A DNA stretch of 64,000 nt from Aplysia californica (lineage: Eukaryota): positions 500,718-564,717 of the forward strand of contig NW_004797443.1 in the NCBI RefSeq assembly GCF_000002075.1, written 5' to 3'. Shown piece after piece: positions 18,401-52,400 of this stretch. Position numbers and translations under genes: made by a program. The notes under the pieces are model-generated. The model had not been told where the DNA came from, did not search any database, and saw nothing but the letters and a program-made list of their open reading frames with translations. Each line of letters begins with the position of its first letter. The stretch's first letter is position 1.

Positions 18401-21400
18401 AAACATCTGTCTTGCCCTTTCTGACATGCACACTAAATACAGTGATCTGTTGGAAGACCAAGTGCGGGTCTTTCAAAATAACCTTTCTGTGCTAAAATGA
18501 GGAATAAAGATTCCTTTATACTTAATCATTCTCCCCAGGACCATCACTGATGAGTGGCAGAAGAAGTATGAGAAATTGACAGACAAGGTGGTGCCACGAT
18601 CTTCAAGGTCAGTCCTTTTCCGCTCTCCCTTCCTCCCACCCTTCCTGATGGGTTAACTCACTTCAGACGGTTCACACAACAGTTGCGTGACCCCCGCGGC
18701 GACGGCTCCCACGAGTCCTGCGTGACCAACTTTGGATTTTTTTTTCGCTCTACAAATCACGCATGGATCGCGAGACCCGCCTCGTACCATTGTTTGGCCA
18801 AGCCTGAGCTACTTAGACTTCGTTTCGTATCTCTGGGGCCGGTAGTTTTTAAGTTATTGAAGGTGAAGGACAGTGACCCCAACTGGGGTTGAACAGACCG
18901 GAACTCGCGCTTTGTTTTTTTCTATACAGCTGATAGTAATCCGACAGTCGCGTCGTAGTAACGGTCGAAGAAGTCGCATGAACAAGAATCACATAATTTC
19001 GCCCATTTCTATACTTCTGTACGTTTTACTAGTTCTAGTGTCTCAGAATATGATGTGTCTAATAGTTAGGATCCTGGATATGTACCCGAACACGGCCCGA
19101 GTCGTAGTTCTAGGGCTAGATCTAGCACTAGTACCGGTGTTGTTTTTCGCGCAACGAAATCACGTCGTGCCGTACATCTGTCTCACGTAATTCAGTGTAT
19201 GGGTCTGAATCAATGCACAGACCAGCTTTTATATTTTCACCAAACACTCCCACATGTATACAAATCAAACCAGAACACTTTGAACTTTTATTTTTGTTGT
19301 TGTAGTGAATTTCATTCTACTTGTCACGTCTCTGGAAATTTTTCAGAAAATCAAATTCATGCCAATTTTTTTAAAATCATGCAAATTAAAGTATTAGACT
19401 TAGACAAATTTAGTTTTTTGTATTAGATTAAGCTTGAATGTTACTTTACTGTGTCAAAAAATAATTACAATAGGGTAATTCTGAGAGTTGTGGTGATTTA
19501 TTGAAATACCCCCAAAAACGCCAGTCTTCAACGCTTGTGACTGGTGAAAGGGCCCAGTCGCAAGTGACTTAAGAGGAGGGACACCTGAACAACACATTTT
19601 TCATTGCTAATGGAGCAATAGTGCTCAAACTAACATGGTATGTTGTATGGAAGATGCAGATTAAAATCAGATGAACAACATAAGTTTTTTTTTAACGGTT
19701 ACCATGGAAACGGCGGCCATATTGGATTTTGTTTACATTTTTCAATTCAATATAACTCCTGAACTACTTGTCCAAATGAGATGCCATTTTGTGTGGTTAC
19801 AAAGAATTGGTATAGAAACAAAGTAACAACGCCATTTTTTGTAAAGAAAGTCTCTGAAAGAAAAAAATACAAAGTGCATGAGGGTGACCTAATTTTACCA
19901 AAATTTACCAAAAAGGACTTTTCAAAAGGCTATAATTTCAAATGATTTCATTTATCATTAAAAAGGAGATTGTAATTTTGTGTGGTATACATCTGTGCAC
20001 ACTCATGCCAAACTAGAGAACAATATCTCAAACGGTTCAGGAGCTATAAGGATTTGAATGATGTTAATATTGTTAAAAACAAGAAACGGAGAAAAACAGC
20101 TCTAAAAGTGTTGGTTAGTACAAGCAGCTACAACACCTCACCTACCTCTCTAAAACTGCCCTGCACCATATGTTACTCCTTCCTGCTGCTGTAACTCAAG
20201 CTGTCTGCGAGCTTTGGCAGCTCTCCTCATTGCCAGTCTGTGTTTCACAGCTTTATCCTGCTTTGCCGCTGAATTCTGTAGGCGCTTGATTTGTCGACGC
20301 AGCCCAAGACGATTGCTGTGGTGACCCTGGCCAACTCCTATGCACTCCTTCAACCGAACTGAAGCATCATGGCCGAAGTTAAACTCAGCAGTTGATAGAA
20401 GAACAGAAAATTGCACCTTTTTCAGAGAAGCGAACTTATGCTTTGGGCAGCTGCTCCAGATTTTAGAGTGGAGTGACTCATTCGCATTCTGAGTGACACC
20501 GAGAAGGCAACGCTGAAGTATCTTGGGGTCAGAAAGGCGCTTGTACACTGGCTTTAGGTGTTTGCTGAGGAGATTATAATTAAGAGGTGTGTGTACAAGT
20601 GTTTTGTGTGGGCCAGGTTCCTCATTTCGAGCAACAGCAGCATTGTAGAAGCACCAAGATCCAGTGCCAGCGGGGCAAAGGTGGTGCATTGGGCGGTTGT
20701 CTGTAGAATAGCCGTGATACATCGAAGCAAGAATTCCTTTCCTCATGTCTTCCACATTCTTATTTTTTCGTATAGCTCTAGTGTAGTAGATTGAAAGCCT
20801 CCTGATAGTTTCTTGCTTCAAAGTACCATAGCCCCTCCCACCGAGAGTGATCTTACGTTTACTGCAGTCACTTACGAGGTTACGAAGAGCTGTTCCCATC
20901 CTCTTCCCCACATGGTTGACACACTCCTCCTTATTCACCTCAACATTCCTGCCATAGGGTTCCATCTCCACAATTCTGTTGTAGGCCTTTGAGTCCCCGT
21001 CTGAAACCATTGTGGTGTAGCGCAGCTTGAACTTCTCGACGGAGCGAGACCAAAGGATTTCCGCAGCACGGGTCTCCATCATCGCAGATGATCCTAGTAC
21101 AGTAAAAAAAATTCAAATAAAGAACAGAATTATAAATCATTGTGTCAAAAGGATGCCAATAGTAAGTCATGGTTTTAAATTAATGTGTATAAAGGTACAT
21201 TTTATTTTATTTATCCTAAATCTTGAGAAATTCAGGCCCAATCCTATGCTGTCATAGATTTCTTCATTCCTGATGAAGTTATTTCTACTTTGGTAGTTTT
21301 AGTTTGAGCTGCAACAGCAAGAACAGATTGATCTAGATATTCACATGAAAATAATATTGCCAGATCATAATAGCACAGGAGTATAAAACCTTTATAAAAA

Positions 21401-24400
21401 AATCAAGACCTCGTTCATGAAAGCAGACATGTAAAAAAAATTTATATATAAGAATTTTGAAAGCTAGATTTGCAAATTACAGAGTTTCTTACCTTTAAAG
21501 TTTATGTCGCAGTTGGGTTTGTGTTTCCGCTGCCATTCGTCATACACCGCAGCTGACTCTCGTTCCTTAATTTTCGCTCCAGTCTGGGAGCAGGTGTGGC
21601 AATACGTAGAGACTACGTGGAAATCAAGGACGTATCCTGTTAGCGCATCTATAACACAGCCTATGCCTATTGTTGAGGTGTGGCCTCTTGTCATCCATGT
21701 TCCATCGTAACTGACAGCTATGTCTAAAACATCGTCGTCTGCCACCTCCTGCCCATTCTCTTTCATCCGCTCTGACCTCACAAGTCGCACCGTCTTCTCC
21801 TCAGTGAGGCGCCTGAACTCTTCTGCCTTCTTGAAAACTTTGTTGGCTTTCACGTTGAACGTCTTCTTGTGCATCCCAGGAATATTCAAATGTTCACAAA
21901 ATTTGTTAAACGAGCACGGTCCTAGTCCACACATCAATGCAGACGAGACCGCAGAATCATTCACAGCAAACGATTTAGAATTTTCAGTCTTTGTCGACGT
22001 GAACGAAGCACTTGGTGTTTCCTTGCAACGGTCACACACAATCTGCAACTGAACAGCAAGTCCAGCTCGGCGTCCAACACTTTCTGAAATTGTTAGAGAG
22101 CTGTTGAAACAGAAGGGGCAAAGTAAGGGACTGATGAGTTCCTGCAAAGCAGAGATCTCCACCACTGTTCTCGATGTTGATTCAGACGTGTGGGACAGAG
22201 GCACAGGTGTTGGAAGAGCTCTAGAAGCTGCAGGAAAATCAATTATCTTCTTCAATGAACGACTTGATACAGCACCTGTCGAGGTAGGAGTCGTAGTCGT
22301 AGTTGCCGTCGTAGATAGATCTAGATCTAGATCTTTTTCACTGTCCTCTGTTCTAACACTCACATGATCGTCAACAGGCTTACCAGGGCCACCAGAAAGT
22401 TTCCTTTGCGCTCTCGCTGCAGAAAGTTGACAGCGCCTCTTAGAAGGCCTCGTCATTGTATAGCGATCAAACAGGCTTTACTAAATCTATAGGAGAATGC
22501 ACACTGCGAACAAGCAAGCACGTGTTGTAACAAAAGAAATACGCACAAACGTGACCAGTGACCAGCGTCCAGCAACTGTCCGCCAAAAGTAAATTTGAAA
22601 AACAAAGTGAGAAGTGATCCACACTTGGTGTGTTGTGAAAAAGTTATGTTTACAGCGGAAGTGTCAATGTTGCTAGTCGAAAATCCCGGATGTTGTAGAT
22701 CTAAGCCAATGAGATTGCTCGGTTTATTCAAGGGATGACCACGAAGCGGAAGTAGGTCGGTCTCGTGCTATTTATGGCAGAGCTTCCCCCAAATTTTATT
22801 CCGATAGTGTTTAGAAATTCCGATCTGGTTTATTTCTATGAAAGAATTGAGGGAAAGGGGGGTAACTGCGTAAAAGAGAAATTATAGACGCGCGTATCGA
22901 TACCAGTTTCACTACTGTGTTTTGTTCGTGTCGGACGTTATGGAGAGCGTTGTTAGGGGGATTTTTTTCGAGATTCCAGGAATCTTATGCTTCATTTTAT
23001 GTTGCCATGTGTTACAAAATGTTGAATTTCGAAGCAAATAGGCCGATTTTTTTAGTTTTGTTGATGTTATCATGAAGTATAATGATGAATCATACAAGAA
23101 ATACCAAAACCTACATATCGATACCTGAGGCCCAAAACTCGAGTTTCATGAGCCGTCCCTCCTCTTAAGACAAGATAAACTGTTTATCCACATGGGAAAT
23201 TGTGGGTGAATACAATCAATTTACAAGACTCTACATCAACACAGAAAGAAACGGACTCAGTACATTTATGTTCTATAATACACATACAGCGATGCACAAC
23301 TCACTTTTGGAAAGTAATTAAAGTCCGCTCTGCCCACAAGCTGGAGGTACAATATGTGTCATGTATAGAATAATACCCTAGAGTGTCTATTGTCAATGTG
23401 TAATATTTACTTTGATGCGTGCCTACTCTACTCTGGCATTGACCAGATGACAAGGATATGTAGTTACTTGAGGGAGGCATTGTGCTGCCAAGAGCGAAAA
23501 GCTCGCAGCTAAAGGGATTTGAAAACAACAACTTTGATGCGTTGTCTCCGTCTCCTTTCCTTCCTGCTGCCTTCTTTACTCTGCCCTCGAGGCCTTGAAA
23601 TGAACTGATGAAGCTGCAAGAGGCCAAAGAATTTATAAAATCACAGAAGCTATTGTTTTTTAAGCCTAAACACAAGAGATCTACTTCGGACGTTTGTAGC
23701 AGTGCCTCTTCTTCAAAGCACATCCACATGTGTGCTTATGTAGTGGCTTTTAGTTTTACAGAANNNNNNNNNNNNNNNNNNNNNNNNNNNNNNNNNNNNN
23801 NNNNNNNNNNNNNNNNNNNNNNNNNNNNNNNNNNNNNNNNNNNNNNNNNNNNNNNNNNNNNNNNNNNNNNNNNNNNNNNNNNNNNNNNNNNNNNNNNNNN
23901 NNNNNNNNNNNNNNNNNNNNNNNNNNNNNNNNNNNNNNNNNNNNNNNNNNNNNNNNNNNNNNNNNNNNNNNNNNNNNNNNNNNNNNNNNNNNNNNNNNNN
24001 NNNNNNCCCCCCACAGATGTGTGTATGAGGACAATGAGCACCAGGTAATGACTGTCACTTTGTTCCGCTTGGTACAAGACGAATTCAAGAACAAGTGCCG
24101 AGAGAACAAGTAAGTACTTTGCGCTCACACTGACACTTACATTGGTGTCTACATTGACACTCATATTGGTACTCACATTGAAATATTGGCACTTAGATTG
24201 GCACTTACATTGACACTCACATTGGCACTCACATTGACACTCACATTGACACTCACATTGGCACTCACATTGACACTTACATTGACACTCACATTGACAC
24301 TCACATTGGCACTCACATTGACACTCACATTGACACTTACATTGGCACTCACATTGACACTCACATTGACACTCACATTGGCACTCACATTGACAATCAC

Positions 24401-27400
24401 ATTGACACTCGCATTGACACTCACATTGGCACTCACATTGGCACTTACATTGGCACTCACATTGGCACTCACTTACATTGACACTTGCATTGGCACTTGC
24501 ATTGGCACTTGCATTGGCACTTGCATTGACACTTACATTGGCACTCGCCTTGACACTTACATTGACACTTACATTGACACTCACATTGACTCTCACATTG
24601 GCACTCACATTGGCACTCATATTGACACTCACATTGGTACTTACATTGGCACTCACATTGACACTCACATTGACACCCATATTGACACTTGCATTAGCAC
24701 TTACATTAACACCTATTTTGACACTTGCATTGGCACTTACCATCATTTGAAAGGGGGGGGGGGGGACTCAGGTGGTTGGATGTTCAGATAAAACTATTTT
24801 AAATTCAAGCCATCAAATATCTACATGACATTTTATTTGCCCCCCAGATTTATCGTGCGAGACTTCCAGTACAGTGATGAGGAAATCCAGGCTGGGAAGA
24901 TGGAATTGGACAAGCTGAACGCAGACAAAAAGAAGCAGTTTGTGAGTAAAGTGGCTCTTTGTTGTGGCATACTGTTTCTTTATGCATTTCATAACGTACC
25001 TGCTTCTTTCTTATTTGTCCCAGTCCTTTTGTAAATAACCCTCGGGGCGGTGCCACTGACTGAAGTGTCTTAAGGCCTTTCCCAAAGGGGAGACATTTCT
25101 CGTTTTAATGCACAGAAGAATTGTAAATGGACCGATCCAACAATGTAATGCTCATAACTGCCTGAACTACAACAGGGAACTGCTTCTTTTTCTTTCCTAA
25201 TCCTATCGCCATTTTCCTCTACTTCTTTTGTATGTTTGTCCCACTCTTGTGACCCGCTATTTCCGGGGTGCCTTGATAGTCGAAGTAGACTTTGTGCTGT
25301 TGGAGCTAGAGAGGTGAGCAGAGTACATCTGATTCCCTCTAAGGGTTTCTCTTTTGACATCCACCCCTTGGCGCTCATATGACATGCAGTTGCGAGCGCC
25401 GTAAAACATCTACTAAAACTAAACTAATACTTTTGTAAATATGGTGTTGATGCCTCTTTCAACATTGTTAGGTCGTTTAAGAGGCAGGAGCTTGGAAATT
25501 TTACACCCACCTCTGATTTGGCAGGATTGTTGTACAATGAATGGACCAGCGTGCACGAAGTGTGTCATTGTATGTGCTGTCAAAGTAATATTTTATTGTG
25601 AAGTGCTTAGAGCTACCAGGAAGTGGGTGCTAAAGAAGTGATCTTTATTTTAATTAGTACCGAGTCGGGGAGGTGGAGAATCTTTATTATCCTCCTCAAC
25701 AACCTAAGTTCAAGAGCACCCCTTTCAGGATTTGAACCAGGGTTACATATGCCAAAGCTAGGGTGCTGCCAACTGAGCTAACAAGAGGCCGGCAGCCCTT
25801 ATGGCCTTTATGTTGGTTCACTATTTGGCACTGCGGGGTGTGCACTTTGTATGTCAGTTGTGGCACTAACTTCTTATCAAGATGAGCAGTTTCTAATAAT
25901 GGATTTCAGAAATGGTGCCAATAATTTTTTTAATGAGTATTGGCAATTTTGTCTATTTCCTGATACATTATTAATTTTCTTAAGAAATCATTATTCAGAT
26001 TTTTTTGTTTTGTTTTGTTTTATATATATGATATTAGTATTAGTGGTATTATTATAAAATTATTATATTTTATTATATTTTATCAAGGTTTTGTAGCTTT
26101 CTGTTTGAATGTAGTGTCCCTGACAAGTTAGGGTGGAAGGAGCCTTCTAAGTGATTCATATTGTATAGAAGGGGACATAAAACATTTCTTCATCTTGTCT
26201 GTTCCAGGGTCCTCTGGTGAAGTGGCTGAAGATCAATTTTGGTGAGAGTTTTGTGGCGTGGATGCACATCAAGGCATTGAGAGTGTTTGTGGAGTCTGTA
26301 CTGAGGTACATTTTGGCGGGGAAAGAACTTCCCTGAGTTTAACCTGAGATAATGCTGCCTTTTTTTTTTTCCTTAAAACAACTGAGGAGAAATATTATCT
26401 AATTGGTTCTGAGGTGTTTAAGGACAGATTGTTTCAGCTTTTTTTTTAAAGACTAAAATTCTTTTGTCTTATGCGTCTATATCTTTTTATCAAATTCAAC
26501 GTGAATTCAGTGCTTATGACTGAAACACTTTTAAAATAGTGGGTCTGCTTTTTGCTAACTTTATAATTGGAATCAAAAACAATTTTTGTCATGAGAAGTT
26601 TTATAGATTGTTCTAATCCAAAATAAATGAACTTTTTCAATAAGTTGATAGAGTTGTAATCCAACAGAAATGTACTTTTTGCCTTTAAAAGTTTTATGGT
26701 TCCATTTTCCTTTCCACTGACAAAGCGTTTCTCTATCTGTGTGCCAGGTACGGACTGCCGGTCAACTTCCAGGGCATGCTGGTGCGACCAGTGAAGAAAA
26801 ACAGCAAACGTCTGCGAGACCTCCTTAACCAGCTGTACGGTCATCTTGACAGCACTGCCCTGTCTGGCCAGAAGGTGAGTCCGGATGCTCTGATCTGCAA
26901 GGGTCACTCTCCCACAAACTTCTTCATGATATTGTCACGGTCATAACACATTTGTCAAAGTCAGTTGTTTGGGGGTTGGTTTTTGGGGGTTTTTGTCTGA
27001 GAAAGCATAAAATGAAATGAAGTATACAGCAGTCAAGATTATGATGTGAGCGAAATAGAAAAACTGCAATAATTGGATGTTTACCACAAACGAACAAAAC
27101 CCTGCTATATTGAGAATACAAAACAAAAAGCAAGCATTTTTACCATGCCAATAAGTAGAAATCTGAAAAATGTTTTTAACAACTGTGGTCACAGTTCTAT
27201 AAAAAAAATTTTTTTAAAGATTCATTTTTTGTGCTATGCCAAATATTATCCTTAGTTGTGATCTAATCTTAGACAATACATGCTGGACAAAAGGTCAGGG
27301 CAGGACTACAGCCTCCAGGATCTTGGATCAATATCAAAGAGACACTCAAAGCAACATTTATTTCTTCGTTTCATTTGTGAAATATAACCTTTTAGTTAAA

Positions 27401-49406: not shown

Positions 49407-52400
49407 GGGGGGGAGGGGGTAAGGGAAGGGAGGGGGAGGGGAGAGAGAGTCTCACCTTTATAATGCAAGTAGAGAACATCATTCAACTCTGGGGTGAGAT
49501 ACAGTTTTAAATCCTTACAGTGCTGTCGAAGGAAGGCTTTGGTCAGAACACTGGGGTGGAAAAAAAGAGTAAAGTTAAGAAAGAATCAAACCACATCACA
49601 AAGAAAGATGATCTTTTGATGTTACATTTTTACGAGACAAAAAAAAACAACTTTTAATCTGTTAATTTTGGGAACAAGCAATACTTTCATAATTTTACAA
49701 TTCCATGCATTTTCACCAGAAGTTGATTATGTTTGTGAGAAAAAGAATAAGTATGAGTAATATAAATAGTCAGATGTACAAGTACTTATCAATTTTTTTT
49801 TCAATCCACAGTAGGGTCTTGACCTCCAATGAACAAGTACTATATTGACTTAAGCAAAACTGTAATTTGTAAATCTAGTTTCCATTACTTAACTTCAATC
49901 AAGTCAAAAAAACAAAGAACTCAAATTTGGGACAATTGCTTTCATATGCTTGATTATGCATGCATGTAGTGTGAACAGTCCACTGTTTAAGTTTTTCTAG
50001 TTTGCTGAAGCAGTATTCTTTGAAGAAAGGTTTAAGGATCCCTAACACTGTCTTCAAAAAAATCAGTGCTCATTTGAGGGTCCCATTTTTATCAACCTTC
50101 ATTGTGTTGCAAGGGAAGAATTTTCGTCACAAATCCAAAATTACTGTTAATATACTTCAAAGGATTATCAATTTTACAAAGCATATATGAATCATTAAAG
50201 ACAGCCTCTAAGAAACTGAACGAAGACTCAACCGGATGATTCAACAGCTTTCTTCCAAAAAGAGTATCATGCATTTTACTTCCCTCAAAATATACTTGTT
50301 CGGGAAAACCAGTTGGCCAAATAGGATGAATTTGATAAAGCATAGAGAAAGAAAAATTAACCTTTAATGATGGGGTGTGAGCCTTTAAGAAGAACTTCAG
50401 AAAAGAAAGGGCCATTCAACCAATTTTGATATTCATCCTAAGTGAGGTCAGCTCATTTTGTAATGCTGTAGTATAGTTACCAACCCCAAGGAGTCATTGT
50501 ATGACTTTACACTTTAATTTTCAGTTACTACGTTCTGAAACATTGTCAAAGGAACTTACCTTGGATATTTACTTTTATTTTCTTTGTCCTCTTCAGGCAC
50601 ATTTCCACCACTTTTCTTCAGTTCTGTGTTATTATTGTTTGTCTCTGAAAATGAAAAGAAGATTTTCTGACTTAAGAATAGTACGTCTCAATGTGATATG
50701 ACTCCATCAGCGAAACTTGACATTCACATTCACTGCTCTTTATTTTCTAAATTTCATCTATATTTTTTTTTTAATTACCAGTCTTTAAATTTTTTAAATC
50801 TGGGACAAGGTACATTACAGATATAGCATTTTATTCCAAATATTCAGACAACAGTTATACATTACCAAAATATGCCAAGCTAATACCAGCACAGAAATAA
50901 TACAGGCTTTAGAGAGCAGAGCCCTCTACGTACACAAGCAGCAAACAGTATTTTCCAGTATACATATATCTACATAAATGTTCTTTTCAAAATAAAAGAA
51001 AAAGCCTTTAACTCATTCGCTACATATTTTTTTCGGCTTGTGGACGAATTTTTTTAGGGAGGGCAAAATGAGATGACGACTAGAGCGCAGTTCAAAGGTC
51101 TTTGGGGCCACAAATTCAAATAAATACCAACATAAAATATTTATATACCAGAATTTTCAGTATGCTTTGTAGAATACATCAGTAATGTTTATTTGTGCAT
51201 TTTTCAACTTTGGCTCCTGCTGTAAGAGGCGATTAAGCAACACAATTTTGCTTGGATGCGGAAAAATTGTTTAAATAAAAAACTATAATAATCTTAGGTG
51301 AAACTCAAAAAATATGTTCCCACCTAGTCAAATTATATATCAAAATAACCATAAATAAATATAGAACAGGAATATATTGAAAAATTGGCAGTTATTTACA
51401 TATATTCCATAAAATTTGTACCTTTGGATCATAACATCCAATATTGAAAATGTAAAAAAAAAAATTTATAATCTCGGAAAAAAGGACAAGATGCATTCAC
51501 AAACAGAAAAAAAACACACGTATCTTATATGAAATTATTCAGAATTGCATTTGGAATGAACCTATATGTGTCTCGACAGGTACTTTTTGTGTAATTTCAC
51601 CAAAAAGAAGTGCATGATTTCGGGGAGAAAAAAATATTTTGACAATTTAGATCTAGACCTAATCTAGATCTTGCACTGAAAAATATTGATTTCTCAATAA
51701 CAGACCACTTAAAATTTCAATTTGAGTCCAATATAGTATTATTATTCTAAAAAAGAGTCCTACATTTCTTTAGTGAGCAAAATAATGATACATTTTGTTG
51801 TATAAAAGTACTAAGACTGTGGTGCCTGGGCATAATTTCGGCATCGCAATAAAACAGTCACAAAAACTTTGAAATCACGATTCAAAACTGAATCACAACT
51901 TTCGATTTTCGGTGATAATGCTTGACCCGTAATTAAGTCAATGTTATATTATAACCTTATTTTAACATGGATATGTGGATTGGACTAAAATCAAAGCAAG
52001 AATTATAGGTAGTTCTCGAGCCGTCGGAGGCGGCTTGGCGTACAGAAGAAACTTTCGCCGCGCCGCGCCGCTGCCCACGGCTCGGCGTAGCGAATGAGTT
52101 AAGTCATCAGCGTTAATTGAGAATCTTGTTCAACTTTTTGTTTCATCGTTTTAAAAGCTCAATATTTAAAATACAAAACGTACCCAAAGACAGGATATCA
52201 CAATCTCTATAATTTCAGTTTTAAAGAGAACAGATGTACTGTTATACTAAATTTCACCTACCTGTTTTGGTATTGTTGTTGGATGTGTCAGTACTGTTTC
52301 CTTCTGTCTGATCAGCTTTCTTTTCCTCACTGAATTTTGTGGTTTCAGGAGGGTCAGACACCTCAACAATTTTGGGTACTGTAACATTCTGTTGTTCAGA

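What the first reader, a model, noticed from the sequence alone, without database searches (positions are those of the whole stretch)
19573..23164. Intact, potentially active single-gene Kolobok-type transposon inside an essential V-ATPase gene
Seen: perfect TIR and TTAA duplication, plus a 635-aa transposase with no stops or frameshifts once one 399-nt intron is removed. The ORF track shows it as two separate ORFs. All D/D/E, CxxH and zinc-ligand motifs are present. An upstream region has CCAAT (~22705) and two GCGGAAGT motifs. It lies antisense in the intron after ATP6V1C coding exon 7. Established: Kolobok elements make TTAA TSDs, have RR..YY termini and often carry a second gene. No second ORF is evident here. 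GAG...CTC plus TTAA also matches Sola3 ends, but the protein and short TIR do not. Inference: a young minimal element, a candidate for seamless TTAA excision and for tool development.
Basis: partly seen in the sequence, partly recalled or inferred. Interest (0 to 1): 0.7.

Follow-up and report, generated by a model that had tools for sequence, protein, structure and literature searches.

The report
Young intact Kolobok transposon, sea hare
A 3.6-kb jumping gene of the already known Kolobok type sits in an intron of a sea hare proton-pump gene, has an unbroken enzyme gene if its one predicted intron is removed, and is likely a recent insertion missing from two other animals, so it is an ordinary but usable example whose proposed scar-free excision is untested and doubtful.

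Summary
In detail: TTAA on both sides, a perfect 10-bp inverted repeat, and a 635-aa DDE transposase once a 399-nt GT-AG intron is removed. It lies antisense in intron 7 of the single V-ATPase C gene of a sea hare genome. It is a Kolobok: 32% identical to this genome's copy of published Kolobok-3_Aplcal, with no match to 10 MULE loci. It is young: a second full-length copy (broken) differs by 2.1%, both exons show dN/dS of about 0.2, and contigs of 2 of 2 DNA-like runs indicate an empty site. Single-gene Koloboks are already published, and three other 4-kb single-transposase copies lie in this genome. This scan noted a similar one here before (e1-9534672). Splicing is inferred from conserved splice sites and intronless relatives. 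It was not seen: contigs of 6 of 6 RNA-like runs cross the donor unspliced, two of them as read-through from the other locus. Seamless excision is unsupported: the fold is closest to IS256/hAT/P enzymes, and published KolobokP excisions remove flanking bases. Verdict: new family of a known kind, and a fair substrate for a first Kolobok assay.

The parts
19573..23164 (-). Kolobok-superfamily DNA transposon, 3592 bp, GA...TC termini
   Evidence: a second full-length copy with the same ends at another TTAA site
19569..19572 (.). TTAA target-site copy at the element's 3' end, shared with the neighbouring 912-bp element
23165..23168 (.). TTAA target-site copy at the element's 5' end
23155..23164 (-). 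5' terminal inverted repeat, 10 bp perfect
19573..19582 (+). 3' terminal inverted repeat, 10 bp perfect
21493..22456 (-). Transposase exon 1 (aa 1-322): low-complexity N-terminus, C4 zinc cluster C113/116/141/144, first catalytic D251, CCHC finger C286/C289/H312/C316
21094..21492 (-). Predicted phase-1 GT-AG intron, 399 nt; if retained, the frame stops after 330 aa
   Evidence: spliced form not seen
20150..21093 (-). Transposase exon 2 (aa 322-635): D353, C379xxH382, zinc cluster H448/H458/C461/C469, E527
22655..22753 (-). Putative promoter region: two GCGGAAGT motifs and a reverse CCAAT; function untested
19682..19759 (-). Subterminal segment shared with 630-780-bp TTAA-flanked MITEs with GG termini; holds a CATGG(C/T)AAC motif that also occurs at 23001-23009
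   Evidence: 7 of 14 loci inspected lie in such MITEs
18657..19568 (.). Neighbouring high-copy non-autonomous TTAA element (CT...AG ends, likely piggyBac type) sharing the TTAA; its last base is C here, G in 11 of 11 paralogues
18539..18605 (+). V-ATPase subunit C coding exon 7 (host)
24015..24109 (+). V-ATPase subunit C coding exon 8 (host)

Best explanation
This is a low-copy, single-transposase Kolobok DNA transposon with an unbroken frame once its predicted intron is removed, which likely jumped recently into a TTAA in intron 7 of the V-ATPase C gene and is likely still absent from some animals. Shown: the ends, the TTAA duplication, the full catalytic and zinc motif set, a second copy 2.1% away at another TTAA, and purifying selection on both exons. 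Inferred: the gene is transcribed from the 5' end and spliced at 21493/21093, mainly in the germ line. The enzyme pairs the 10-bp TIRs, helped by subterminal sites, and inserts at TTAA. Excision most likely follows the C/DxxH clan (IS256/MULE, hAT, P) and leaves small footprints, not piggyBac's clean join. Most RNA seen is unspliced, and in two runs it is read-through from the broken second copy, so it is not transposase message.
For: Ends and frame. Kolobok: 32% over 568 aa (BLASTP E 6e-84, small database) to L069, whose core matches the printed Kolobok_3_Aplcal letter for letter in the stretches compared by eye; best E 0.39 to 10 of 37 MULE loci. CxxH and both lineage zinc fingers as defined in PMC9587614. 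Youth: the C29 copy has 74 substitutions in 3472 bp and TTAA on both sides. In 2 of 2 DNA-like runs the right-flank contig carries 30 (X8) and 21 (X16) letters before the TTAA that do not fit the element. Intron real: donor identical in 2 of 2 older copies that cover it, acceptor AG kept in 3 of 3; dN/dS 0.21, 0.25 and 0.16. The junction aligns without a gap to intronless homologues. A ~52% relative has a GT-AG intron at the same codon (read by eye). Fold of a 68%-identical relative: ISCth4 Z 12.3 (rmsd 5.0, 258 aligned), Hermes Z 9.6; Foldseek ranks ISCth4, P, Hermes.
Against: Contigs of 6 of 6 RNA-like runs cross the donor unspliced, and X19 spans the whole intron; no spliced joint was displayed (the list was complete, but 23 joints were hidden). 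The family has only 2 full-length copies among 40 scored matches, one broken by a stop at codon 35 and a frameshift. None of 26 further TTAA+TIR matches inspected (of 70) is an end of this family, so there is no sign of a current burst. The window lineage carries 21 changes since the split from C29 over 2153 sites; some may be private and harmful. One exon-1 fragment gives dN/dS 0.54. The letters at the presumed empty sites were not displayed.
Confidence: 0.85

Rival explanations
1. The copy is intact in sequence but dead in practice: silenced, or never spliced, with the family's last jumps in the past.
For: Only unspliced contigs in 6 RNA-like runs. The second copy is broken and sits in a pile of decayed transposases that RNA-like contigs read through. 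No young non-autonomous derivatives among 26 end matches inspected.
Against: Likely empty site in 2 of 2 DNA-like runs, and 99.3-100% identical pieces in other runs. Tissues are unknown and contigs drop minor forms. No change at strongly conserved residues except R420/K and I513/L.
Confidence: 0.45
2. The intron is a P-element-like switch: kept in the soma (giving a 330-aa truncated protein that lacks D353 and E527 and could act as a repressor) and removed only in the germ line, possibly under piRNA control from the read-through copy.
For: The unspliced product is 330 aa and keeps the N-terminal zinc clusters. Unspliced contigs in 6 of 6 RNA-like runs. Precedent in P element IVS3 (PMC7776569 passages). 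The C29 copy lies among same-strand transposase remnants and is read through.
Against: Strand and tissue of the RNA are unknown; antisense read-through explains unspliced contigs with no switch. The intron is not more conserved than the element's other non-coding parts (p 0.07-0.24). 23 of 26 related loci manage without an intron.
Confidence: 0.12
3. It is a MULE or Sola3 element rather than a Kolobok.
For: The only Pfam hit is named 'Mutator-like transposase' (PF20700). The best structural match is IS256-family ISCth4. GAG...CTC ends with TTAA are recalled for Sola3.
Against: PF20700 also hits the published Kolobok-3_Aplcal copy at E 3e-59. No similarity to 10 MULE loci and no PF10551 hit. 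A 4-bp TTAA duplication, a 10-bp TIR, and CxxH plus both Kolobok zinc fingers.
Confidence: 0.03
4. The gene is a domesticated transposase kept by the host.
For: dN/dS of about 0.2; Kolobok domestication is published for Xenopus (PMC6004289 passages).
Against: Intact TIRs and TSD, a dispersed 98% copy, and a likely empty site in two animals.
Confidence: 0.02

Closest known systems
Kolobok superfamily, transposase-only families with the CCHC finger (Repbase Kolobok-3_Aplcal, Kolobok-3_DeSi, Kolobok-1_LHu; Kojima & Bao 2022, PMC9587614: abstract, parts 1 and 3 of 6, section 14, passages, supplement 3 parts 104-105 and searches)
   Same: TTAA duplication, RR...YY termini, DDE with C/DxxH, zinc finger between C/DxxH and E, CCHC finger after the first D, no accessory gene; 39% core identity to this genome's Kolobok-3_Aplcal copy; motif-by-motif match to Kolobok_3_DeSi by eye.
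   Different: A distinct family: its own core is not in that supplement (search for DIAVSYDG found 0; Repbase itself could not be searched). It has one intron where 23 of 26 related loci in the genome have none. Nearest proteins are unannotated gastropod PF20700 proteins at 62-65% (Elysia, Biomphalaria).
Kol0/Kolobok0 (Kolobok-1_XT) and Xenopus XKol elements (PMC6004289, passages)
   Same: TTAA target, RR termini, short TIRs, candidates called 'currently active' from sequence alone.
   Different: No KolX gene and no THAP domain found here; XKol full-length copies are 6.8-13.9 kb.
piggyBac (PMC7351741, abstract and introduction)
   Same: TTAA target duplication; one ORF.
   Different: Termini RR...YY here; DDE with C/DxxH instead of DDD. 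piggyBac's clean excision depends on TTAA hairpins at the transposon ends, a step not shown for any Kolobok in what I read.
ISCth4 (IS256 family), Hermes (hAT) and Drosophila P transposases (solved structures)
   Same: Closest folds to the model of relative P0001; C/DxxH clan per PMC9587614.
   Different: About 10% identity, TM-score 0.31-0.45, rmsd 5 A or more; the shared fold does not fix the cutting pathway.

Membership tests
Kolobok superfamily | 4-bp TTAA target-site duplication | tested here: met
   TTAA on both sides here and at the C29 copy
Kolobok superfamily | 5'-RR and YY-3' termini with TIRs | tested here: met
   GA...TC, 10-bp perfect TIR; definition in PMC9587614
Kolobok superfamily | [quoted passage not shown] | tested here: met
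   D251, D353, C379xxH382, E527, conserved in 33-34 of 35 rows
Kolobok superfamily | Zinc finger downstream of C/DxxH (absent from MuDR, P, hAT) | tested here: met
   H448/H458/C461/C469 in 33-34 of 35 rows; definition
Kolobok superfamily | Sequence kinship with named Kolobok transposases | tested here: met
   32% over 568 aa to the genomic Kolobok-3_Aplcal copy, profile score 505 bits; identity of that copy judged by eye against the supplement
Kolobok superfamily | Placement in a tree of Repbase/Dfam reference transposases | not testable with these tools
   The tree (quick method) holds only homologues and one anchored Kolobok family, with no outside superfamily
Kolobok, late lineages (P, E, D, Kolobok5, solitary families) | CCHC zinc finger after the first catalytic D | tested here: met
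   C286, C289, H312, C316
Kol0 / KolobokP / E / D / H | Accessory protein (KolX, His-Me nuclease, lambda exonuclease, DEDDh, RecQ) or long terminal direct repeats | tested here: not met
   No other ORF with a family hit above cut-off; no long direct repeat
Kol0 / Xenopus XKol | N-terminal THAP domain | tested here: not met
   No THAP hit at E<=1 in exon 1 or in full-length relatives P0001, P0004
MULE / MuDR | MULE transposase domain (PF10551) or kinship with MULE proteins | tested here: not met
   No PF10551 hit; best BLASTP E 0.39 against 10 of 37 MULE loci, and three long MULE ORFs score below 0 bits with the family profile
MULE / MuDR | 8-11-bp variable TSD and long TIRs (recalled) | tested here: not met
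   TTAA and a 10-bp TIR at two sites
Sola3 | GAG...CTC ends with TTAA (recalled) | tested here: met
   the defining paper was not seen
Sola3 | Long TIRs of hundreds of bp (recalled) | tested here: not met
   10 bp
Sola3 | Sola-type transposase | not tested
   No Sola reference protein was at hand
piggyBac | piggyBac transposase family (PF13843) and YY...RR termini | tested here: not met
   No PF13843 hit, RR...YY termini
piggyBac | piggyBac-like fold | tested here: inconclusive
   Fold searches rank ISCth4, Hermes, Tn5 and P first; these searches cannot exclude a family
piggyBac | Footprint-free excision through transposon-end hairpins | not testable with these tools
   Needs an excision assay; published KolobokP footprints point the other way

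The most novel reading that the evidence does not exclude
The element is mobile today and would be the first Kolobok shown to jump: a eukaryotic TTAA-targeting enzyme of the IS256/hAT/P clan, perhaps using a circular copy-out/paste-in step like ISCth4. Its one intron would be a P-element-like switch, kept in the soma and removed in the germ line under small-RNA control from the read-through copy at C29.
Probability: 0.1. Interest if true: 0.65.

Novelty: new member of a known kind. Interest (0 to 1): 0.28.

Why it matters
As a finding it is ordinary: one more Kolobok family in a genome that holds many. Its value is practical. Kojima & Bao call the transposition pathway of KolobokP unknown, and my three paper searches listed no Kolobok transposition assay (listings only). 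A 3.6-kb, one-gene, likely polymorphic copy with all catalytic residues is a cheap substrate for asking how a non-piggyBac enzyme finds TTAA and whether it leaves a scar. Intronless candidates in the same genome (C26, C709) would serve equally well or better.

Tried and rejected
1) Empty site from paralogues of the left flank: failed. The flank is the end of a separate 912-bp TTAA element, and its 11 paralogues do not continue into the right flank. 2) Non-autonomous derivatives: the exact TTAA+TIR pattern gave 74 matches against 7 for the control. Of the 30 fetched, 4 are the ends of the two full copies and 26 are the inside of an unrelated old repeat; 44 were not inspected. 3) Intron as a separate mobile element: it matches only this family's copies, 4 of 4 hits. 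4) Special conservation of the intron: lower divergence than four-fold sites against C29 (p 0.0006), but no different from the element's other non-coding parts (p 0.07-0.24), so rejected. 5) No RNA holder listed: none of the 24 runs is on record as RNA; RNA status of X2, X4, X10, X17 rests on spliced host-gene joints, and of X12, X19 on lack of flank cover. Host intron bins free of repeats had depth 0-3 where the element had 3-20; this cannot rank expression. 6) No spliced transposase joint was displayed in 8 runs laid; contigs cannot show absence. 7) No solved structure by sequence; no piggyBac chain among the rows printed by either fold search, which does not exclude it. 8) TTAA-anchored ends were found for 3 of 9 more distant loci (C26, C70, C709) and not for C1390, C1, C246, C958, C321, C98 within 10 kb. 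9) The careful tree did not finish; the quick tree is quoted, and row L056 was a wrongly picked 146-aa ORF and should be ignored. 10) The Sola paper is not held, so Sola3 features are recalled. 11) The sequence look-up in earlier findings gave nothing. 12) The host joint 18605/24015 in 4 of 4 runs says nothing on carriers, because the genotype of those animals is unknown.
Full report
1. Observation. The element runs from 19573 to 23164 on the minus strand, between TTAA at 19569-72 and 23165-68, with a perfect 10-bp inverted repeat GAGGAGGGAC. Of 23,614 TTAA pairs in the window, 4 reach 10 inverted bases, and two of those are poly-T. The same ends bound a second full-length copy at G000:C29 with TTAA on both sides and different flanks. 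Removing a 399-nt GT-AG intron (21492-21094) gives 635 aa; the other 3 of 4 donor/acceptor pairs give 325-369 aa. Both exons hit Pfam PF20700. D251, D353, C379xxH382, E527 and three zinc clusters are conserved in 31-34 of 35 aligned proteins. The protein departs from strongly conserved columns only at R420 and I513, both conservative changes. No second gene was found.

2. Host. Ten of 11 PF03223 hits in the genome are exons of this one gene. Four runs join them with GT-AG joints, including 18605/24015 across the element, and eight joined exons read as open V-ATPase C. Two proteins named Aplysia californica match loci of this genome at 100% over 589 and 675 aa, so the host is the sea hare. The left TTAA is also the right end of a 912-bp high-copy element (40 scored matches at 96-100%, of 536 candidates). 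The site is TTAA-MITE-TTAA-Kolobok-TTAA; the order of arrival is not known.

3. Family. PMC9587614 defines Kolobok by TTAA duplication, RR...YY ends and C/DxxH. [quoted passage not shown] All of these fit. The printed core of Kolobok_3_Aplcal matches loci L069 and L072 of this genome in the stretches I compared by eye. The window protein is 32% identical to L069 over 568 aa, while 10 of 37 MULE loci give no match (best E 0.39). PF20700 hits L069 too, so its name 'Mutator-like' is no argument for MULE. In a quick tree the protein groups (support 100) with one Elysia and two Biomphalaria proteins of 62-65% identity. The genome search with exon 2 gave 129 matches. Single-transposase copies of 3.9-4.0 kb with TTAA and GG ends stand at C26, C70 and C709, of which C26 and C709 have open frames of 680 and 667 codons. 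One gene and small size are therefore the local norm.

4. Age and mobility. The C29 copy differs by 74 substitutions in 3472 bp and has a stop at codon 35 and a 1-nt deletion in exon 1. Older pieces are 76-97% identical. dN/dS is 0.21 (C29, 621 codons), 0.25 (C879, 442), 0.16 (C386 exon 2, 306) and 0.54 (a 99-codon C386 fragment). In the two DNA-like runs laid, the unique right flank lies on a contig that continues past the TTAA with 30 (X8) or 21 (X16) letters that do not fit the element. This shows an allele without the element's end at this site; the letters were not displayed. X8 also has a 597-nt contig in exon 1 with 4 differences and no gap, so it lacks C29's stop and frameshift there. 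X2 has a 649-nt 5' end with 3 differences that leaves the window sequence at 23169. Near-identical copies thus likely exist at other places in other animals, though contigs can be mosaics of copies.

5. The intron. For: the donor is identical in 2 of 2 older copies that cover it, and the acceptor AG is kept in 3 of 3. The junction FKG/SSAMME aligns without a gap to intronless homologues. Both exons are under selection, and the triad is split between them. Among 26 other related loci, 23 cross the site without an intron, 2 are uninformative, and 1 (L071, about 52% identical, broken) has a GT-AG intron at the same codon. Against present expression: contigs of X2, X4, X10, X17, X12 and X19 cross the donor unspliced, and X19 spans the whole intron. 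No spliced joint was displayed (list complete, 23 rows hidden). The contigs of X12 and X19 run out into the C29 flanks, so they are read-through of that locus, of unknown strand. That locus is a pile of broken same-strand transposases and resembles a piRNA cluster; this is inference.

6. Mechanism. An AlphaFold model of relative P0001 (68% core identity, mean pLDDT 92.5) is closest to ISCth4 (Foldseek E 1.6e-4; Z 12.3, rmsd 5.0, 258 aligned), then Hermes, Tn5 and P. These are distant matches and do not fix the pathway. piggyBac's clean excision comes from TTAA hairpins on the transposon ends (PMC7351741, abstract and introduction). KolobokP excisions were inferred to remove 1-5 flanking bp on one side, recalling IS256 copy-out/paste-in, and the pathway is called unknown. 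I put footprint-leaving excision at about 0.75 and seamless excision at about 0.2, and present-day competence of this copy at about 0.5. A P-element-like intron switch (PMC7776569, passages) is possible, since the unspliced product is a 330-aa protein without D353 and E527, but read-through explains the RNA more simply.

7. Earlier notes and print. This scan recorded another young single-transposase Kolobok in an intron of the same genome (e1-9534672) and many Koloboks elsewhere; these are unchecked leads. Searches for Kolobok with transposition assay/excision, with human cells/heterologous, with insertion polymorphism, and with Aplysia (listings only) showed no assay of a Kolobok and no description of this family. 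Repbase, Dfam, subscription papers, figure 4 and three of the four supplements of PMC9587614 were not seen.

8. Verdict. A real, well-formed, young Kolobok family of a known kind. Interest 0.28.

Noticed in passing
G000:C29:1159200-1176100 (L073-L075): A pile of broken DNA transposases on one strand (another Kolobok, the second copy of this family, piggyBac-type pieces); RNA-like contigs of X12 and X19 read out of the family copy into its flanks, unspliced. Looks like a piRNA cluster; strand and small RNAs untested.
   Followed up: partly
window 18653-19572: A 912-bp TTAA-flanked non-autonomous element, 96-98% alike in many copies, shares its right TTAA with the Kolobok; its terminal base is C here and G in 11 of 11 paralogues.
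   Followed up: partly
L071 (G000:C38:2019226-2022678): A ~52% identical, broken Kolobok has a phase-1 GT-AG intron at the same codon as the window's intron, although closer relatives are intronless: an old intron lost often, or gained twice at one site.
   Followed up: partly
G000:C26:442388-446394, C70:1815835-1819772, C709:364056-368094: TTAA-flanked single-transposase Koloboks of 3.9-4.0 kb with 6-7-bp TIRs; C26 and C709 have open intronless frames of 680 and 667 codons, and C26/C70/C1390 are 95-98% alike.
   Followed up: partly
window 19682-19759; L017-L030: A subterminal segment shared with 630-780-bp TTAA MITEs with 16-bp GG-ended TIRs (7 of 14 loci); very deep in DNA-like runs. A CATGG(C/T)AAC motif sits near both ends of the element.
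   Followed up: partly
window 51008-52102: Another TTAA-flanked element of about 1.09 kb with a perfect 12-bp inverted repeat and CT...AG ends.
   Followed up: no
window 21206-21211: Two overlapping AATAAA on the element's strand inside the intron, and none after the stop codon; early polyadenylation of unspliced RNA is possible.
   Followed up: no
window 24118-24700: A degenerate short-period tandem repeat in host intron 8 that yields a long low-complexity open frame on the minus strand.
   Followed up: no
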